NCBI RefSeq assembly: GCF_029227855.1
Contig: NZ_CP074356.1
DNA from: Escherichia coli
Lineage (GTDB): Bacteria > Pseudomonadota > Gammaproteobacteria > Enterobacterales > Enterobacteriaceae
Direction: 5' to 3' (one strand)
Length of the DNA: 64,000 bases
Below, one piece after another: positions 766 to 46,287 of the stretch (within the stretch, counting starts at the first letter, position 1; every line of letters starts with the position of its first letter). The position numbers and the translations under genes were made by a program. Below the pieces are notes generated by a model, which did not search any database, was not told where the DNA came from, and saw nothing but the letters and a program-made list of their open reading frames with translations.

Positions 766-1425
766 TTACTGCATCATCCCGGAGAATTTATTCTCCGGGT
801 CCATCTCCAGCGCCAGTCCTGACAACTGCTTTCTGTTTTTAATTAGATACCCTTTCTTGCTTTTAATTAATAAACCGTCGTGAATGAATTGCGCGAGAAC
901 ATATAAAAGATGTCGATAAGAAACGCCTAAATACTCTGCCGCTTGCGTATGCTTTTCGTGATAAAGATCACCTTCCTGCGAGAGTAATATAAATGCTGCC
1001 AGGCGATTCACTAACGGAAATGATTGATTCTGAGTTAAAGAAACAATATTACGGTAATTTTTATGACTTAAGGTGACGCAGAGTTTTCGTAAAAATAGCG
1101 TGTCGTTTAATAACACCGGGCGGTAATGTTTCATAGGGAGCGCAAGGCACCAACACTCTTCAATAGCCTGCACCGCACGCGGTTCATGGTCTTTGTCGAT
1201 TAACTCAATCTCGCCAATAAAACAGGGAGCGGCAAAGAAATCGATCAGCGACACGCGACCATTAGCAAGCGTGGCGTAAAGCCTGGCGCGGCCTCGCGTC
1301 AGGTAAAACAGCCAGGACGGCTGTTGCCCTTCCTGCACAATGTAGTCACGCGCTAAAAAATGAAACAGCCGCGTATCGGCTGAAACATCCGTTGAAAAGC
1401 AATCCTTAAACGCGGATTCACTCAT
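766..1425 (-). CDS. yeiL: Crp/Fnr-family transcriptional regulator YeiL
   Basis: ORF 766..1464; start trimmed to the internal Met of [10 protein letters not shown].. from recalled K-12 N-terminus; C-terminal HTH. Confidence 0.75.
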
Positions 1426-9666: not shown

Positions 9667-9686
9667 GTTTCCTCCCTTCCTTGCTA

Positions 9687-9712
9687 AGCCCTCTCAACCG
9701 AGAGGGCTTTTT
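9687..9712 (+). terminator. Rho-independent terminator downstream of lysP
   Basis: agccctctc-aacc-gagagggct stem-loop followed by TTTTT. Confidence 0.75.
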
Positions 9713-13747: not shown

Positions 13748-14905
13748 ATGGAGCGCAACGTCACGCTCGATTTTGTTCGCGGCGTCGCCATTCTGGGGAT
13801 CCTGCTATTAAACATCAGCGCCTTTGGGCTACCAAAGGCGGCTTATCTCAATCCCGCCTGGTACGGCGCTATTACGCCGCAGGATGCATGGACCTGGGCA
13901 TTTCTCGATCTCATCGGCCAGGTGAAATTCCTCACGCTTTTTGCGCTGCTGTTTGGTGCTGGCCTGCAAATGTTGCTGCCCCGTGGCAGACGCTGGATCC
14001 AGTCGCGGTTAACGCTGTTAGTCTTGCTGGGCTTTATTCACGGTTTATTGTTCTGGGACGGCGATATTCTGCTGGCTTACGGGCTGGTGGGCTTAATCTG
14101 CTGGCGGCTGGTGCGCGATGCGCCATCAGTAAAAAGCCTGTTTAATACAGGCGTCATGCTTTATCTGGTGGGGCTTGGCGTTTTGATGTTATTGGGGCTG
14201 ATTTCCGACAGCCAGACCAGCCGCGCCTGGACGCCGGATGCATCGGCTATTTTGTATGAAAAATACTGGAAGCTTCACGGCGGCGTTGAAGCGATCAGTA
14301 ATCGTGCCGACGGTGTTGGCAACAGTTTACTGGCACTGGGCGCACAGTATGGCTGGCAACTGGCAGGGATGATGCTCATTGGTGCGGCGCTGATGCGCAG
14401 CGGCTGGCTGAAAGGGCAGTTCAGCTTACGTCACTATCGTCGTACTGGTTTTGTGCTGGTGGCGATTGGGGTGACCATTAACCTTCCTGCCATCGCCCTG
14501 CAATGGCAGCTGGACTGGGCGTATCGCTGGTGTGCCTTCTTACTTCAAATGCCGCGGGAACTGAGTGCGCCGTTTCAGGCGATTGGCTATGCGTCGCTGT
14601 TTTATGGTTTCTGGCCGCAATTAAGCCGCTTTAAGCTGGTGCTTGCGATCGCCTGCGTCGGACGGATGGCGCTGACCAACTATCTATTGCAAACGCTGAT
14701 TTGTACCACGCTTTTTTACCACCTCGGTTTGTTTATGCATTTTGACCGCCTGGAGCTGCTGGCGTTTGTTATTCCGGTATGGCTGGCGAATATCCTCTTC
14801 TCTGTTATCTGGCTGCGTTACTTCCGCCAGGGGCCGGTGGAATGGCTCTGGCGTCAGTTAACTTTGCGTGCTGCCGGACCGGCAATATCTAAAACATCAA
14901 GATAA
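13748..14905 (+). CDS. yeiB: DUF418-family inner membrane protein YeiB
   Basis: 385 aa polytopic membrane protein immediately downstream of folE. Confidence 0.8.
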   Translation: MERNVTLDFVRGVAILGILLLNISAFGLPKAAYLNPAWYGAITPQDAWTWAFLDLIGQVKFLTLFALLFGAGLQMLLPRGRRWIQSRLTLLVLLGFIHGLLFWDGDILLAYGLVGLICWRLVRDAPSVKSLFNTGVMLYLVGLGVLMLLGLISDSQTSRAWTPDASAILYEKYWKLHGGVEAISNRADGVGNSLLALGAQYGWQLAGMMLIGAALMRSGWLKGQFSLRHYRRTGFVLVAIGVTINLPAIALQWQLDWAYRWCAFLLQMPRELSAPFQAIGYASLFYGFWPQLSRFKLVLAIACVGRMALTNYLLQTLICTTLFYHLGLFMHFDRLELLAFVIPVWLANILFSVIWLRYFRQGPVEWLWRQLTLRAAGPAISKTSR

Positions 14906-19984: not shown

Positions 19985-20036
19985 TATTGCCGGATGCGCC
20001 GCATCCGGCAATCGGTGCCAAATGCCGGATGCGTCT
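19985..20036. repeat. REP element(s)
   Basis: gccggatgcgccgcatccggc palindrome plus partial second copy between convergent mglC and preA. Confidence 0.7.
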
Positions 20037-25955: not shown

Positions 25956-26157
25956 TTAATTCGTAAAACGTGCTACCGATCACATTAAGAAATCAGCGCT
26001 TATTTTTTCGCTCCCGGGCATTACGCAATGAGCAGCGAACTCAGGCATACATCAAGCATAGAGAGGGAATGCAGTTTGCAGCAATCCCTCTTTGCAGACC
26101 TTTAATCCGCTGACCATAGGCGCTAACATAGCGCCTCATTTTTTTGCGGGTGATGAT

Positions 26158-27105
26158 ATGCGTGTGTTACTGGCACCGATGGAGGGTGTACTCGACTCTC
26201 TGGTGCGTGAATTGCTGACCGAAGTTAACGACTACGATCTGTGCATCACCGAGTTTGTCCGCGTGGTGGATCAACTGCTGCCGGTAAAAGTCTTTCATCG
26301 CATTTGCCCTGAGCTACAAAACGCCAGCCGGACACCATCCGGTACGCTGGTGCGCGTGCAGTTGTTAGGTCAGTTCCCACAATGGCTGGCAGAGAATGCC
26401 GCCCGTGCGGTCGAGTTAGGTTCCTGGGGCGTGGATCTCAATTGCGGCTGCCCGTCGAAAACGGTTAACGGTAGCGGCGGTGGGGCGACGTTACTCAAAG
26501 ATCCTGAACTCATCTATCAGGGTGCAAAAGCGATGCGTGAAGCTGTACCGGCGCATTTGCCCGTCAGCGTGAAAGTGCGTCTGGGCTGGGACAGCGGTGA
26601 GAAGAAATTTGAAATCGCCGATGCGGTGCAACAGGCTGGCGCTACGGAGCTGGTAGTACATGGGCGGACAAAAGAGCAGGGTTACCGCGCGGAGCATATT
26701 GACTGGCAGGCGATTGGCGAGATTCGCCAGCGGCTGAATATTCCGGTGATTGCCAACGGTGAAATTTGGGACTGGCAGAGCGCGCAACAATGCATGGCGA
26801 TCAGCGGCTGTGACGCAGTGATGATTGGTCGCGGGGCGCTCAATATTCCCAACCTGAGCCGGGTGGTAAAATATAACGAACCGCGAATGCCGTGGCCGGA
26901 GGTGGTTGCTTTGCTGCAAAAATATACCCGTCTGGAAAAGCAGGGCGATACCGGGTTATATCACGTAGCGCGGATTAAACAGTGGTTGAGTTATTTGCGT
27001 AAAGAATACGATGAAGCAACGGAATTATTTCAGCATGTTCGGGTGTTGAATAATTCCCATGATATTGCAAGGGCTATTCAGGCAATTGATATCGAGAAAC
27101 TCTAA
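26158..27105 (+). CDS. dusC: tRNA-dihydrouridine synthase C
   Basis: ORF 26092..27105 trimmed to [11 protein letters not shown].. (Dus family TIM barrel). Confidence 0.9.
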
Positions 27106-27257
27106 GAAACCATAGTGATGTTTTTTGACAATGTGTTAGCTCTTTATCAATAGGCCGCACGGTTGTTTGGTGGCGTCAAAATCGCCGAGGCGTTCCCTGA
27201 AGGCCGGGGCAGCCCACATGGATGTGGGCTGAGGGCGCGTTTTACAGGGATAATGAG

Positions 27258-27268
27258 ATGGACGCTCC
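27258..27268. repeat. Left subterminal inverted repeat of IS element
   Basis: atggacgctcc; reverse complement recurs at 28623..28633 and, imperfectly, over the transposase RBS at 27326..27335. Confidence 0.5.
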
Positions 27269-27336
27269 AGATTTTACGGTATCAAAGTACCAGACTGGAT
27301 CGTTGCAATACGTCCTGAAAAATTAGGAGCGTCCAC

Positions 27337-28362
27337 ATGAAAGTATCAACTCTTGGTATCGACTTGGCAAAGAACGTTTTTCAGCTTCATGGTGTCGATC
27401 ATGAAGGCCATACTATTTTGCGTAAAAAGCTCACCCGGGCTAAGTTTGTTCAGTTTGTGATTCAACTGGAACCTTGTCTGATTGGCATGGAAGCCTGCTC
27501 ATCCAGTCATTATTTTGCGCGATTATTCACCCGCTATGGTCATGAGGTAAAACTCATACCTCCGCAGTATGTGAAGCCTTATGTGAAAACGAACAAGACG
27601 GATGCAGCAGATGCTGAAGCAATCTGCGAAGCGGTAACCCGTCCGAATATGCGTTTTGTTCAGATAAAAACCGAAGAGCAGCAGGCCGTTTTAGCGTTAC
27701 ACACTGAACGGGGAATACTTATCCGTGAGCGGATTGCCTGTGCCAATAGTTTAAGAGCCACACTTGCTGAGTTTGGTATTACGATTGCGGCCGGACAAAA
27801 CCATTTAACCCGTGAGCTGCCAGCCATTCTGGAGGATGGCGAAAATGGTTTATCTCCCTTTGTCAGAACCAGCATCTACAGACAGTCTAAACATATCCGG
27901 GAACTTGAAGAACAAGTTAAACAGGTAGAAGAAGCTCTGGCCTCCTGGTATAGAACGCAGGAAGCCTGCCAGAGAATGGCCAAGATCCCGGGGGTTGGCA
28001 TGCTAACGGCCACTTATGTGGTAGCAGCAGTGGGTAATGCCCGACAATTCAGTACCGCAAAGCAGTTCGCTTCATGGCTGGGGCTGACACCAAAGGAACA
28101 TTCCAGCGGCGGGAAACAGCAACTGGGAGGGATCAGCAAACGTGGAGATGGATATTTCCGATACCTGCTGGTTCACGGCGCACGCGCACTTACCGCCTGG
28201 GTCAACCGAAACGGCGCGGTTGAGGAGAATTCCTGGCTTCAGGGACTCCTTGAGCGGAAGCACTACAATGTAGCTGTTGTCGCCATGGCGGCAAAAACAG
28301 CGAGGATCATGTGGTCAATATTGTCACACAATACTGAATATCAACCTCGGCAGCTCGCCTGA
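27337..28362 (+). CDS. IS110-family transposase/recombinase (DEDD RuvC-like N-domain plus C-terminal Ser domain)
   Basis: 341 aa; N-terminal GIDLAK, GMEACSS, DAADAEAI and C-terminal SSGG...GGISKRGD motifs typical of IS110/IS1111 transposases; resembles IS4321/IS5075 more than IS621. Confidence 0.9.
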   Translation: MKVSTLGIDLAKNVFQLHGVDHEGHTILRKKLTRAKFVQFVIQLEPCLIGMEACSSSHYFARLFTRYGHEVKLIPPQYVKPYVKTNKTDAADAEAICEAVTRPNMRFVQIKTEEQQAVLALHTERGILIRERIACANSLRATLAEFGITIAAGQNHLTRELPAILEDGENGLSPFVRTSIYRQSKHIRELEEQVKQVEEALASWYRTQEACQRMAKIPGVGMLTATYVVAAVGNARQFSTAKQFASWLGLTPKEHSSGGKQQLGGISKRGDGYFRYLLVHGARALTAWVNRNGAVEENSWLQGLLERKHYNVAVVAMAAKTARIMWSILSHNTEYQPRQLA

Positions 28363-28640
28363 CACAAGGTCAGTCAATCTGACGAGGTGCTGAAAAAAAG
28401 TTAACGTCCTGGTAGGTGCAAGTGACTTCAGAAGATGGCAAAACAGGTAAGACCGCAGGCAGGATACACCGAGAGGTAACAAGGGCAAGTTAGCCCGTAG
28501 AGGATGATTGGTACCTGCCTGGCGGATTTCATCATGGTTCGGGATAAAAATCCCATCAGAAACCGGATATATGGCTGCACCTACCCGTTTTATTACATAA
28601 CTGAAGAAAGCATTGCATTCCGGGAGCGTCCATATATGTT
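28363..28640 (+). ncRNA. Candidate IS-encoded guide (bridge/seek) RNA in right-end non-coding region
   Basis: IS1111-group elements encode their guide RNA downstream of the transposase; region has no ORF and several short stems (gtcagtcaatctgac); extent is guessed. Confidence 0.3.
28623..28633. repeat. Right subterminal inverted repeat of IS element
   Basis: ggagcgtccat, reverse complement of 27258..27268. Confidence 0.5.
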
Positions 28641-28863
28641 ACCTCGCGCCCGACCCGGTAGCCGTAAGGGATAAGCCGAGGGCACCGCGCAGCGGCGATT
28701 TTGTTCGCCAGAGCCCGGGGGGGCAGGGGGCGGCGGCGATTGGTCGCCCCCTGCGCGCTCCCTGCGCCAGTGATTATATGAAGCAATGCACATGACAGGA
28801 GCGCAACAGGATGAGAGACTGAAATATTCTCGTTATTTTCGGATCTGATGACATTAATTAATT

Positions 28864-28947
28864 TTAAAATATCATCTTAAATACGCCAGTCACCACCAGT
28901 AGCCCAATCAGGAAAATAATCAATACAGCCCAGAGTATAATTTTCAT
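28864..28947 (-). CDS. yohP: Small membrane protein YohP (27 aa)
   Basis: Minus-strand ORF MKIILWAVLIIFLIGLLVVTGVFKMIF, below the 60-aa cut-off of the ORF track. Confidence 0.7.
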   Translation of the reverse strand: MKIILWAVLIIFLIGLLVVTGVFKMIF

Positions 28948-29170
28948 TGGCGTTCCTTTATTTGTGAGTGCTGAATAAGTATAGGAAAAAACGAAGCCCT
29001 TTGCCGCTATCCATAAACGATTAAGATAAATCGGAAGATATCATTCACTTAGTGTATATTTTTCTGGATATGTCGTTTTATTGCCACTGATGTATTGCCA
29101 CGCGAAACTAAAAAATATATCGCAACACACGGTAATCTCCGCGCACCTTTTCTTACCTGATTATTCCCCC

Positions 29171-46246: not shown

Positions 46247-46287
46247 GACGGGTATGGCGGCCATGCAAAAACATGGCCGCCGACAGA

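What the first reader, a model, noticed from the sequence alone, without database searches (positions are those of the whole stretch)
27196..27233. Near-perfect palindrome just left of the IS
cagcccacat-gg-atgtgggctg at 27210..27231 has 10-bp arms around a 2-nt centre, followed by gggcgcgtttt. It may be the dusC terminator, or part of a palindromic target, since IS1111-family elements often insert next to hairpin-forming repeats.
Basis: seen in the sequence. Interest (0 to 1): 0.3.

Follow-up and report, generated by a model that had tools for sequence, protein, structure and literature searches.

The report
Native hairpin beside RNA-guided IS target
The palindrome is not made by the insertion sequence and is not a terminator: it is the first of two conserved hairpins of an unannotated repeat found in nearly every E. 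coli genome, and the insertion sequence has landed, apparently guided by its own RNA, in the loop of the second hairpin 20 bases away.

Summary
CAGCCCACAT-GG-ATGTGGGCTG lies at 27210-27231, 20 bp left of a 1.38-kb IS1111-type element.

The palindrome pre-dates the IS. It is present in IS-free dusC-yohP regions, including K-12. It is hairpin 1 of a ~265-nt structured repeat whose 71-nt core occurs in 5425 of 5426 complete E. coli genomes (median 2 places, maximum 7), never annotated.

The uninterrupted repeat resembles Rfam TwoAYGGAY (RF01731) but scores 30.2 bits, below the 43-bit cut-off. A covariance model built from the E. coli-type copies finds curated TwoAYGGAY members and Shewanella repeats. 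The shared structure covaries strongly, including the palindrome helix.

At four independent chromosomal loci the same IS sits at the identical point and orientation, in the loop of hairpin 2 (…ACAGGG AT|IS|AT GTTACCTC…). The IS 3' non-coding region carries GAGGUAACA and GGAUG, which match that site as described for seekRNAs.

One plasmid insertion shares only ~GGAATGTTACCTC, so the palindrome is a neighbour of the target rather than the target.

No terminator signature was found. Both loops match the CsrA SELEX consensus. CsrA binding is inferred and untested, and published CLIP tables give no support.

The result is a new variant of a known kind, of moderate interest.

The parts
27160..27251 (+). 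Left (5') half of the native TwoAYGGAY-like repeat element: 5' arm of the closing stem P1 (CAAAATCGCCG), inner stems, hairpin 1, and the 5' arm plus left loop of hairpin 2. Cut off from its right half by the IS.
   Evidence: Model R1 hit at window 27160-27314 (43.7 bits). Colinear with empty sites L001 and K-12. Rfam TwoAYGGAY alignment on L001 477-616.
27210..27231 (+). The palindrome, which is hairpin 1 of the element: stem CAGCCCAC/GUGGGCUG closing the loop AUGGAU. Read as CCACAUGGAUGU it matches 9 of 12 positions of the CsrA SELEX consensus, including ACA, GGA and UGU.
   Evidence: It is helix 8 of alignment A3: 9 pairs, 7 with compensatory changes, 95.9% of cells paired. The consensus is taken from PMC4347634.
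27233..27251 (+). 5' arm (GGGCGCG) and left part of the loop (UUUUACAGGGAU) of hairpin 2. It ends in the AT core at which the IS is inserted.
   Evidence: Empty-site comparison. Rfam alignment. Hairpin 2 covaries in Kluyvera-type copies, GUUCAC/GUGAAC versus GUUUAC/GUAAAC.
27252..28635 (+). IS1111-subgroup (IS110-family) insertion sequence, 1384 bp plus one copy of the ambiguous AT. Its ISfinder name was not determined.
   Evidence: The transposase matches NF033542 at 357.6 bits. A 273-nt non-coding region lies downstream of tnp, there are subterminal inverted repeats, the transposase is 341 aa, and it carries GLTPKEHSSG, which fits GL-P----SG. These criteria come from PMC11187229.
27258..27268 (+). 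Left subterminal inverted repeat, ATGGACGCTCC.
   Evidence: I7: 11 nt, 100% complementary to 28623-28633.
27337..28362 (+). Transposase gene, 341 aa.
28457..28523 (+). Candidate seekRNA core stem-loop. It contains GAGGUAACA (28473-28481, complementary to target top strand TGTTACCTC) and GGAUG (28502-28506, identical to top-strand GGATG and so able to pair with the bottom strand), separated by a small apical hairpin.
   Evidence: 9-nt match reached by 10 of 500 shuffles. The order and overlap of the two matches are as described for IS1111 seekRNAs in PMC11187229. The guide segments are identical in all IS copies examined.
28623..28633 (+). Right subterminal inverted repeat, GGAGCGTCCAT.
   Evidence: I7.
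28636..28709 (+). Right half of the TwoAYGGAY-like core: second AT, the rest of the hairpin-2 loop and its 3' arm (GTTACCTCGCGCCC, 28638-28651), inner stems, and the 3' arm of P1 (CGGCGATTTTG).
   Evidence: R1 hit at window 28564-28709. P1 covaries between loci: CAAAA…TTTTG versus GTAAA…TTTAC.
28710..28807 (+). Conserved 3' extension of the enterobacterial element: GC-rich hairpin GCAGGGGGCG…CGCCCCCTGC (28723-28754) and stem GCGCTCC…GGAGCGC, ending at AGGAGCGCAAC.
   Evidence: (I19), the fold, and conservation across loci and species with divergence immediately after AGGAGCGCAAC.

Best explanation
The palindrome is a pre-existing hairpin of the host genome. It is not part of the IS, not a by-product of insertion, and not the dusC terminator.

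It is hairpin 1 of a ~265-nt dispersed structured repeat. The ~140-nt core of that repeat has the TwoAYGGAY architecture: a long closing stem and two adjacent hairpins with CA-Y/G-GGA-Y-G loops.

The IS1111-type element was inserted orientation-specifically at the AT in the loop of hairpin 2. The likely reason (inferred) is that an RNA from the IS's 3' non-coding region, a seekRNA, pairs with ~GGAT/GTTACCTC across that loop and the 3' arm. The palindrome is therefore always 20 bp to the left of chromosomal copies of this IS simply because it is the neighbouring hairpin of the same repeat.

In this genome the insertion splits the repeat. Hairpin 1 stays intact but is separated by 1.4 kb from the 3' half of its closing stem.

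Shown: nativeness, repeat family, covarying structure, identical insertion point and orientation at 4 loci, and guide-target complementarity.

Inferred: the seekRNA function itself. Also inferred, with roughly 40% confidence, is that at the RNA level the two loops are CsrA/RsmA-type binding sites, so that the intact element would bind one CsrA dimer.
For: Nativeness:
- Empty sites in NZ_CP032879 and K-12 read …CAGCCCACATGGATGTGGGCTGAGGGCGCGTTTTACAGGGATGTTACCTCGCGCCC….
- 95 genomes carry the IS here. Most of the other genomes align to both flanks with the IS missing.

Repeat family:
- The 71-nt core is in 5425 of 5426 complete E. coli genomes, 14,876 places, median 2, maximum 7, with no annotation.
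- K-12 has full copies at dusC-yohP and lysO-aqpZ.

Relation to TwoAYGGAY:
- The empty site matches RF01731 end to end (E=0.021), with the palindrome aligned to hairpin 1.
- Curated-threshold TwoAYGGAY hits occur in Lachnospiraceae, Erwinia and Pseudocitrobacter loci that share the same hairpin.
- Model R1, built from E. coli-type copies, recovers those members and full-length Shewanella elements.

Structure:
- 92.3% of cells are paired, against 67% in shuffles and about 36% with partners slid. 43 of 50 pairs show compensatory changes.
- The palindrome helix has 7 covarying pairs out of 9.
- The MAFFT-only enterobacterial alignment has 8 compensatory pairs.

Targeting:
- The junction and orientation are identical at dusC-yohP, ybaP-copA, yegH-asmA and lysO-aqpZ.
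- GAGGTAACA and GGATG sit in a stem-loop of the non-coding region, in the arrangement reported for IS1111 seekRNAs.
- The plasmid site shares only GGAATGTTACCTC.

CsrA:
- The loops CCACAUGGAUGU and UUACAGGGAUGU fit RUACARGGAUGU with GGA in the hairpin loop.
- TwoAYGGAY was predicted to be a CsrA-binding RNA (PMC4333381).
Against: - The E. coli copy scores 30.2 bits against the Rfam cut-off of 43. Its hairpin-2 loop is AGGGAU, not AYGGAY, and the apical stem of that hairpin is poorly paired.
- Alignment A3 was fitted to the model, which inflates the pairing counts.
- Loci for the wider family were ascertained by the exact hairpin-1 sequence. Hairpin-1 covariation therefore rests on about 8 extra paralogs.
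- No promoter or terminator was found in the element, and its orientation relative to flanking genes is inconsistent, so transcription is unproven.
- Published CsrA CLIP tables list dusC, ybjE (lysO) and asmA as unbound.
- The bottom-strand guide match is only 5 nt and is not significant on its own.
- The single off-element insertion also has an unrelated 10-bp-arm palindrome 25 bp to its left. A helper role for a nearby hairpin is therefore not excluded.
Confidence: 0.8

Rival explanations
1. The palindrome is the Rho-independent terminator of dusC.
For: It lies 105 nt downstream of the dusC stop codon on the same strand, has a GC-rich 8-10 bp stem, and a TTTT run follows within 10 nt. At yegH the element is also downstream of, and co-oriented with, the flanking gene.
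Against: The scan finds no terminator-like site in the empty intergenic region. The stem is followed by AGGGCGCG, and the T-run is part of the hairpin-2 loop. The same element is antisense to both neighbours at ybaP-copA and lysO-aqpZ and is inverted at this very locus in another lineage. The hairpin loop sequence is conserved across phyla, which terminators do not show.
Confidence: 0.05
2. The palindrome is a functional part of the IS target. A hairpin or cruciform about 20-25 bp to the left helps the recombinase-seekRNA complex open or recognise the site.
For: All four chromosomal sites have it at the same distance. The one off-element plasmid site has a different perfect 10-bp-arm palindrome ending 25 bp to the left. 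From my own knowledge, IS1111 and IS110 relatives are known to favour REP, attC and transposon inverted-repeat targets; ISPpu9 in REP sequences appears in the abstract listed.
Against: The constant distance at chromosomal sites follows trivially from the two hairpins being parts of one repeat. The guide matches cover only the hairpin-2 loop and 3' arm. Hairpin 1 at the lysO-aqpZ site carries a stem mismatch yet is occupied. There is only one off-element case, and intergenic sites are generally rich in palindromes.
Confidence: 0.12
3. The element works at the DNA level, for example as a MITE-like mobile repeat whose long closing stem is a pair of terminal inverted repeats, or as a protein-binding DNA site. 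The hairpins would then have no RNA function.
For: It is a dispersed, variably present repeat found in either orientation, with no promoter or terminator of its own. Both strands fold about equally well. Weinberg et al. note very long P1 stems. Some Shewanella copies carry a nested ~53-nt insert with two opposite-strand hairpins.
Against: Compensatory changes include G-U intermediates: 4 G-U at pair 29-192 and 8 U-G at pair 96-123. G-U pairs form on one strand only. The loops are strand-asymmetric (GGA, not UCC) and conserved from Lachnospiraceae to Enterobacteria. No target-site duplications or transposase partner were identified.
Confidence: 0.2
4. The palindrome belongs to the IS or was generated by the insertion, as an end, a target duplication or a footprint.
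For: Proximity to the IS only.
Against: It is present unchanged in IS-free genomes including K-12. The IS ends are defined by the subterminal inverted repeats at 27258-68 and 28623-33.
Confidence: 0.01

Closest known systems
TwoAYGGAY RNA motif (Rfam RF01731; Weinberg et al. 2010, PMC2864571)
   Same: Long closing stem. Two adjacent hairpins joined by UGAG, with loops of the CAYGGAYG type. Hairpin 1 has the same sequence as in curated Lachnospiraceae and Erwinia members. Detection is reciprocal with covariance models. The structure covaries.
   Different: The E. coli-type copy is below the curated score (30.2 versus 43 bits). The hairpin-2 loop is AGGGAU with a weak apical stem. There is a conserved ~100-nt 3' extension. 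The element behaves as a dispersed repeat (2-7 copies, either orientation) in a species where the family is not annotated.
CsrA/RsmA-binding hairpins and decoy RNAs (CsrB, CsrC, RsmY/Z); SELEX consensus RUACARGGAUGU
   Same: ACA-GGA-UGU presented in a hexaloop closed by C-G. There are two such sites 28 nt apart, a geometry that (from my own knowledge) a CsrA dimer can bridge. Gardner & Eldai 2015 predicted TwoAYGGAY to be a CsrA-binding RNA.
   Different: Only 2 sites per element, against many more in CsrB and CsrC (from my own knowledge). No promoter or terminator was identified. No CLIP support was found in the published E. coli tables. Binding was not tested.
Site-specific IS1111-family elements guided by a seekRNA (ISEc11, ISKpn4, ISPa11, IS4321/IS5075; Siddiquee et al. 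2024, PMC11187229)
   Same: Downstream non-coding region, subterminal inverted repeats, 341-aa DEDD-type transposase with GL-P----SG, no real target duplication, fixed orientation, and top-strand match 5' of an overlapping bottom-strand match.
   Different: The target (~GGATGTTACCTC in a TwoAYGGAY-like hairpin loop) is not among those named in that paper. ISEc11's target is GTGAAAATACTG. No match to the target or sTIR strings was found in the paper's supplements.
REP/BIME and other enterobacterial intergenic repeats that serve as IS targets (for example ISPpu9 or ISPa11 in REP)
   Same: A small, GC-rich, hairpin-forming intergenic repeat used as a landing pad by an IS110-family element.
   Different: No sequence similarity to the REP units seen in K-12 ybaQ-copA. 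It is much longer, multi-helix, low in copy number, and conserved across phyla.

Membership tests
TwoAYGGAY RNA (RF01731) | Hairpin 1 with an AYGGAY terminal loop | tested here: met
   The loop is AUGGAU, closed by the stem CAGCCCAC/GUGGGCUG, and is aligned to model hairpin 1. The identical hairpin occurs in members that pass the cut-off.
TwoAYGGAY RNA (RF01731) | Hairpin 2 with an AYGGAY terminal loop | tested here: inconclusive
   E. coli has AGGGAU (G at the Y position) and only 2-3 apical pairs. Close relatives in Kluyvera and Enterobacteriaceae have GUUYAC-AUGGAU-GURAAC.
TwoAYGGAY RNA (RF01731) | Closing P1 stem, often long | tested here: met
   CAAAAUCGCCG/CGGCGAUUUUG, with compensatory variants GUAAA/UUUAC.
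TwoAYGGAY RNA (RF01731) | Score at or above Rfam's gathering cut-off (43 bits) | tested here: not met
   30.2 bits, E=0.021, on empty site L001. E. coli-type loci give no hit at the gathering threshold.
TwoAYGGAY RNA (RF01731) | Homology shown by reciprocal model search | tested here: met
   Model R1 (E. coli-type) hits L125, L126, L127, L114, L122 and L043-2 at E from 1e-6 to 1e-4. Those same loci pass Rfam's cut-off.
CsrA-binding RNA | GGA in a hairpin loop within the ACA-GGA-UGU context | tested here: met
   Hairpin 1 matches 9 of 12 and hairpin 2 matches 11 of 12 positions of RUACARGGAUGU.
CsrA-binding RNA | Transcribed and bound by CsrA in vivo or in vitro | tested here: inconclusive
   No promoter or terminator in the element. 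The CLIP tables of PMC5694010 list dusC, ybjE and asmA as 'No'. Repeats may be lost as multi-mapping reads. Binding cannot be tested with these tools.
CsrB/CsrC-type sponge | Many GGA sites per RNA | tested here: not met
   Only two loop GGA sites in the core.
Intrinsic (Rho-independent) terminator | GC-rich stem-loop immediately followed by a U-tract | tested here: not met
   No site found in L001 350-900. The stem is followed by AGGGCGCG.
IS1111-subgroup target site | Same junction and orientation at independent loci | tested here: met
   Four chromosomal loci and one plasmid site share …GGAT/GGAAT|IS|ATGTTACCTC.
IS1111-subgroup target site | The palindrome lies within the guide-matched target | tested here: not met
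   The guide matches cover target positions 19-30, GGATGTTACCTC. The palindrome ends 16 nt before that segment. The plasmid site lacks the palindrome.
IS1111 subgroup of the IS110 family (the IS itself) | Downstream non-coding region, subterminal inverted repeats, 330-350 aa transposase, GL-P----S/TG motif | tested here: met
   273-nt non-coding region at 28363-28635. 11-bp subterminal repeats. 341 aa with GLTPKEHSSG. NF033542 at 357.6 bits. Criteria.
REP/BIME | Similarity to the REP consensus unit | tested here: not met
   K-12 REP units in ybaQ-copA (GCCGGATAAGGCGTTTACGCCGCATCCGGC) show no resemblance to the element. This was a comparison by eye only.

The most novel reading that the evidence does not exclude
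E. coli, K-12 included, and many other bacteria carry an unannotated, dispersed and apparently mobile family of two-hairpin RNAs that present SELEX-grade CsrA sites, acting as a third, modular class of CsrA-binding elements. An RNA-guided IS1111 element has evolved its guide to recognise one of these CsrA-type loops, so that insertion disables the module. A further possibility is that strong hairpins next to the target help seekRNA or bridge-RNA recombinases gain access to DNA.
Probability: 0.2. Interest if true: 0.7.

Novelty: new variant of a known kind. Interest (0 to 1): 0.42.

Why it matters
For the finding as posed, the answer is ordinary. The palindrome is host sequence, neither an IS feature nor a terminator, and it travels with the IS only because both hairpins belong to one repeat.

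Three side results have some value.

1. The best-studied bacterium has 2-7 unannotated copies of a covarying, cross-phylum RNA-like structure that Rfam's threshold misses. Its two loops are near-perfect CsrA SELEX sites. That makes the 2015 prediction that TwoAYGGAY binds CsrA directly testable in E. coli K-12.

2. It gives a naturally replicated target map for an RNA-guided IS1111 element: four chromosomal loci plus one off-element site. This map shows which target positions are constant (GTTACCTC) and which tolerate change (the left side). Such information is useful for understanding seekRNA specificity.

3. It shows that IS copies sitting in dispersed repeats accompany large chromosomal rearrangements.

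Tried and rejected
- Rfam on the interrupted window region gave only weak, irrelevant hits: AgvB-like at 22.9 bits and mir-611. The TwoAYGGAY resemblance appeared only on the uninterrupted empty site.
- Terminator and promoter scans of the empty site found nothing in the element.
- I looked for a conserved downstream gene, because the yegH copy is followed by a RelE/ParE pseudogene and an HTH gene. Across 16 enterobacterial copies the sequence diverges right after AGGAGCGCAAC and no ORF is shared. The toxin-antitoxin link was dropped.
- An inversion model for the L002-type locus was rejected. The flanks and the last dusC codons also differ, so it is a replacement or independent acquisition.
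- Literature searches for CsrA with yohP or dusC, and for the loop sequence, gave nothing relevant. The CLIP supplements gave no peaks.
- The supplements of the seekRNA paper do not contain this target or these subterminal repeats. The IS name could not be established.
- The plasmid search yielded one off-element site, present on two related plasmids.
- An alternative bottom-strand guide, CGTTTTA/TTACA at 28586-28597, was not significant (155 of 500 shuffles).
- A fuzzy-regex scan timed out and was replaced by exact patterns.

Full report
**1. Observation**

The window region is E. coli dusC (26092-27105, +), an IS110-family element, yohP (28864-28947, -) and mdtQ. The palindrome CAGCCCACAT-GG-ATGTGGGCTG is at 27210-27231, with perfect 10-nt arms around a 2-nt centre (I12). 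Perfect palindromes of this size occur at five distinct sites in the window, against 0.27 per shuffle. The feature is real and not a chance event.

**2. It pre-dates the IS**

A megablast of 26900-29100 against 5,426 complete E. coli genomes finds the region in 5,425 of them. Only 95 hold the IS at this site. Most of the others align to both flanks with a gap of 1,386 bp.

Alignment with an empty site (NZ_CP032879, L001) and with K-12 MG1655 (L004) gives the uninterrupted sequence …GGCCGGGGCAGCCCACATGGATGTGGGCTGAGGGCGCGTTTTACAGGG-AT-GTTACCTCGCGCCCGACC…. The IS therefore occupies 27252-28635 and is bracketed by AT on each side. The breakpoint is ambiguous within that dinucleotide. The palindrome is host sequence 20 bp to the left.

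**3. What the palindrome belongs to**

Run on the uninterrupted site, Rfam's covariance models give an end-to-end match to TwoAYGGAY (RF01731) at L001 477-616. The score is 30.2 bits with E=0.021, below the curated 43 bits. In that alignment the palindrome is model hairpin 1 (loop AUGGAU), and GGGCGCG-UUUUACAGGGAUGUUACCU-CGCGCCC is hairpin 2. The interrupted window gives no such hit.

The 71-nt two-hairpin core is present in 5,425 of 5,426 genomes, at 14,876 places, with a median of 2 and a maximum of 7 per genome. It never lies under an annotated feature. K-12 has full copies at dusC-yohP and lysO-aqpZ, and a 5'-truncated one at yegH-asmA.

The whole unit is about 265 nt. It consists of the ~140-nt core plus a conserved 3' extension that ends at AGGAGCGCAAC, after which the copies diverge. 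It folds far better than shuffles on either strand, with z about -4.8 and -5.0.

**4. Wider family and structure**

A scan of one genome per species for GCCCACAYGGAYGTGGGC returned 120 loci and was truncated. Some hits are chance or coding matches. Apart from those, the same hairpin sits in multi-copy repeats of the following groups:
- Shewanella.
- Escherichia albertii and E. whittamii.
- Pseudocitrobacter, Kluyvera and Erwinia.
- MAGs of Lachnospiraceae, Deferribacteraceae, Thiotrichaceae and Treponema.

At Rfam's curated threshold, the Lachnospiraceae (79 and 72 bits), Erwinia (53 and 46 bits) and a second Pseudocitrobacter element (49 bits) are TwoAYGGAY.

A covariance model built only from 18 enterobacterial E. 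coli-type copies (A2, R1) recovers those curated members. It also recovers full-length Shewanella elements and additional paralogs whose hairpin-1 stems differ, for example GUCCGCC/GGCGGAC, CCAU/AUGG and CCUG/CAGG.

On the 30-sequence alignment A3:
- 92.3% of cells are paired, against 67% in shuffles and about 36% with partners slid.
- 43 of 50 pairs show compensatory changes.
- The palindrome helix has 7 covarying pairs of 9 and is 95.9% paired.

A3 was fitted to the model, which favours the structure. The MAFFT-only enterobacterial alignment still shows 8 compensatory pairs in the outer stems.

The E. coli element is thus a divergent relative of TwoAYGGAY. It has the same architecture and is detected reciprocally, but it fails the curated score, and its loop 2 is AGGGAU.

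**5. Relation to the IS**

The IS is an IS1111-subgroup element:
- The transposase matches NF033542 at 357.6 bits.
- It is 341 aa and carries GLTPKEHSSG.
- A 273-nt non-coding region lies downstream of the gene.
- There are 11-bp subterminal inverted repeats (I7).

These are the criteria set out in PMC11187229. The IS occurs in 179 of 5,426 genomes, at 337 places.

Flanks were read at four independent chromosomal loci: dusC-yohP, ybaP-copA, yegH-asmA and lysO-aqpZ. In every case the IS lies in the same orientation at the same point of a copy of the repeat. The right flank GTTACCTC never varies. The left flank tolerates change (ACAGGGAT, ACAAGGAT, ACAGGAAT).

In the non-coding region, a stem-loop at 28457-28523 carries two short segments:
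- GAGGUAACA, complementary to top-strand TGTTACCTC. It is 9 nt long and is reached by 10 of 500 shuffles.
- GGAUG, 21 nt downstream, identical to top-strand GGATG. It overlaps the first match in the target.

This is the arrangement reported for IS1111 seekRNAs: the top-strand match lies 5' of an overlapping bottom-strand match. The guide segments are identical in all copies examined. That this RNA is the guide is an inference and was not shown here.

One degraded copy on F-type plasmids sits at …GCCGGAAT|IS|ATGTTACCTCACAG…. Model R1 finds no element there. The ~13-nt sequence therefore suffices, and the palindrome is not part of the recognised target.

There is a caveat. An unrelated perfect 10-bp-arm palindrome ends 25 bp to the left of that plasmid site. 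With a single case, a helper role for a neighbouring hairpin cannot be excluded.

**6. Terminator reading**

No terminator-like site is found in the empty intergenic region. The stem is followed by AGGGCGCG. The element is antisense to both neighbours at two loci. At dusC-yohP itself, another E. coli lineage carries it inverted within a different intergenic cassette. I reject the terminator reading, at about 5%.

**7. How the hairpin probably works**

Both loops fit the CsrA SELEX consensus RUACARGGAUGU, in which ACA and GGA are invariant and GGA lies in a hairpin loop (PMC4347634). Hairpin 1 reads CCACAUGGAUGU (9 of 12). Hairpin 2 reads UUACAGGGAUGU (11 of 12). The two GGA motifs are 28 nt apart. 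From my own knowledge, a CsrA dimer can bridge that spacing.

Gardner & Eldai (PMC4333381) had already predicted that TwoAYGGAY RNAs sequester CsrA. Some relatives carry three or four such hairpins (Deferribacteraceae L028).

Several points count against this:
- The element has no promoter or terminator of its own.
- Its orientation relative to neighbouring genes is inconsistent.
- The published E. coli CsrA CLIP tables list dusC, ybjE and asmA as unbound. Near-identical repeats are easily lost as multi-mapping reads, so this absence is weak evidence.

I put CsrA binding at about 40%, and a purely DNA-level or selfish repeat at about 20%. In this genome the IS has split hairpin 2 and the closing stem, so whatever the element does is probably lost here.

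**8. Verdict**

The palindrome is ordinary host sequence: hairpin 1 of an unannotated TwoAYGGAY-like repeat. Its proximity to the IS is explained by guide-specified insertion into the adjacent hairpin.

Novelty: a new variant of a known RNA motif family and a new natural target for a known RNA-guided IS mechanism. Interest is moderate.

Noticed in passing
L135 (NZ_CP029747.1 2681617-2683600), compared with L133 and the window: One IS copy has dusC and the dusC-type left half of the repeat on its left, and the aqpZ-side right half on its right. This implies a large chromosomal rearrangement, probably an inversion, by recombination between IS or repeat copies at the dusC-yohP and lysO-aqpZ loci in strain 2016C-3878.
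   Followed up: partly
L002 (NZ_CP056114.1) versus L001 and window 27100-28860: In another E. coli lineage the whole dusC-yohP intergenic cassette is different. The repeat is inverted, the flanks are unrelated, the last dusC codons differ, and loop 2 reads ACAAGGACGU (core AC instead of AT). This looks like replacement or independent acquisition rather than a simple inversion.
   Followed up: partly
L021, L053, L058 (2159-), L111, L121 (Shewanella): Some Shewanella copies carry a ~53-nt insert exactly at CAGG|AU of the hairpin-2 loop, the same position as the E. coli IS. The insert holds two hairpins (TGGCATCCATGCCA and GTGAATCCATTCAC) that are AYGGAY-type hairpins on the opposite strand. Their UCC loops could pair with the GGA loops.
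   Followed up: no
L136 246-275 (plasmid NZ_CP076707.1); same site in L138: The only off-element insertion of this IS also has an unrelated perfect palindrome (GCAGAGTCAG-n10-CTGACTCTGC) ending 25 bp left of the junction. This compares with 20 bp for the window palindrome.
   Followed up: partly
window 27259-27275 and 27319-27335; also 28623-28635: Inside the IS left end, the subterminal repeat pairs with a third copy of the GGAGCGTCCA motif that overlaps the transposase Shine-Dalgarno and start (AGGAGCGTCCACATG). A hairpin there would hide the ribosome-binding site in transcripts reading in from dusC.
   Followed up: no
L043 1967-2333, L081 9308-9669, L124 1541-2003: In Pseudocitrobacter, Kluyvera and an Enterobacteriaceae genome, two paralogous elements sit head to head (divergent) 40-140 bp apart. 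One is E. coli-type and the other has a different hairpin-1 stem; in Pseudocitrobacter (L043) that second element reaches Rfam's cut-off.
   Followed up: no
L007-L009 and L134, right of the yegH copy; L012 (K-12): Downstream of the yegH-locus repeat, some strains have a RelE/ParE toxin pseudogene plus an HTH gene. In K-12 the same repeat is 5'-truncated and lacks both hairpins.
   Followed up: partly
window 28781-28841 (-): A weak AgvB-like (anti-GcvB sRNA) match of 22.9 bits against a cut-off of 56, in the variable sequence between the repeat and yohP. It is probably chance.
   Followed up: no
plasmids NZ_MN783745.1, NZ_AP022288.1, NZ_CP066807.1 (H106-H108): Several F-type plasmids carry a 349-bp fragment, 92.9% identical to IS positions 1011-1359 (the transposase 3' end plus the seekRNA region), with no full IS. 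There are two places per plasmid.
   Followed up: no
window 27258-27268: The IS subterminal inverted repeat ATGGACGCTCC itself begins with ATGGAC, an AYGGAY hexamer. Here it lies in a stem rather than a loop. This may be coincidence.
   Followed up: no
window 778-799, 9686-9709, 19986-20012, 46256-46281: Four other perfect palindromes with arms of at least 10 bp in the window. They were not examined and are likely terminators or repeat units.
   Followed up: no
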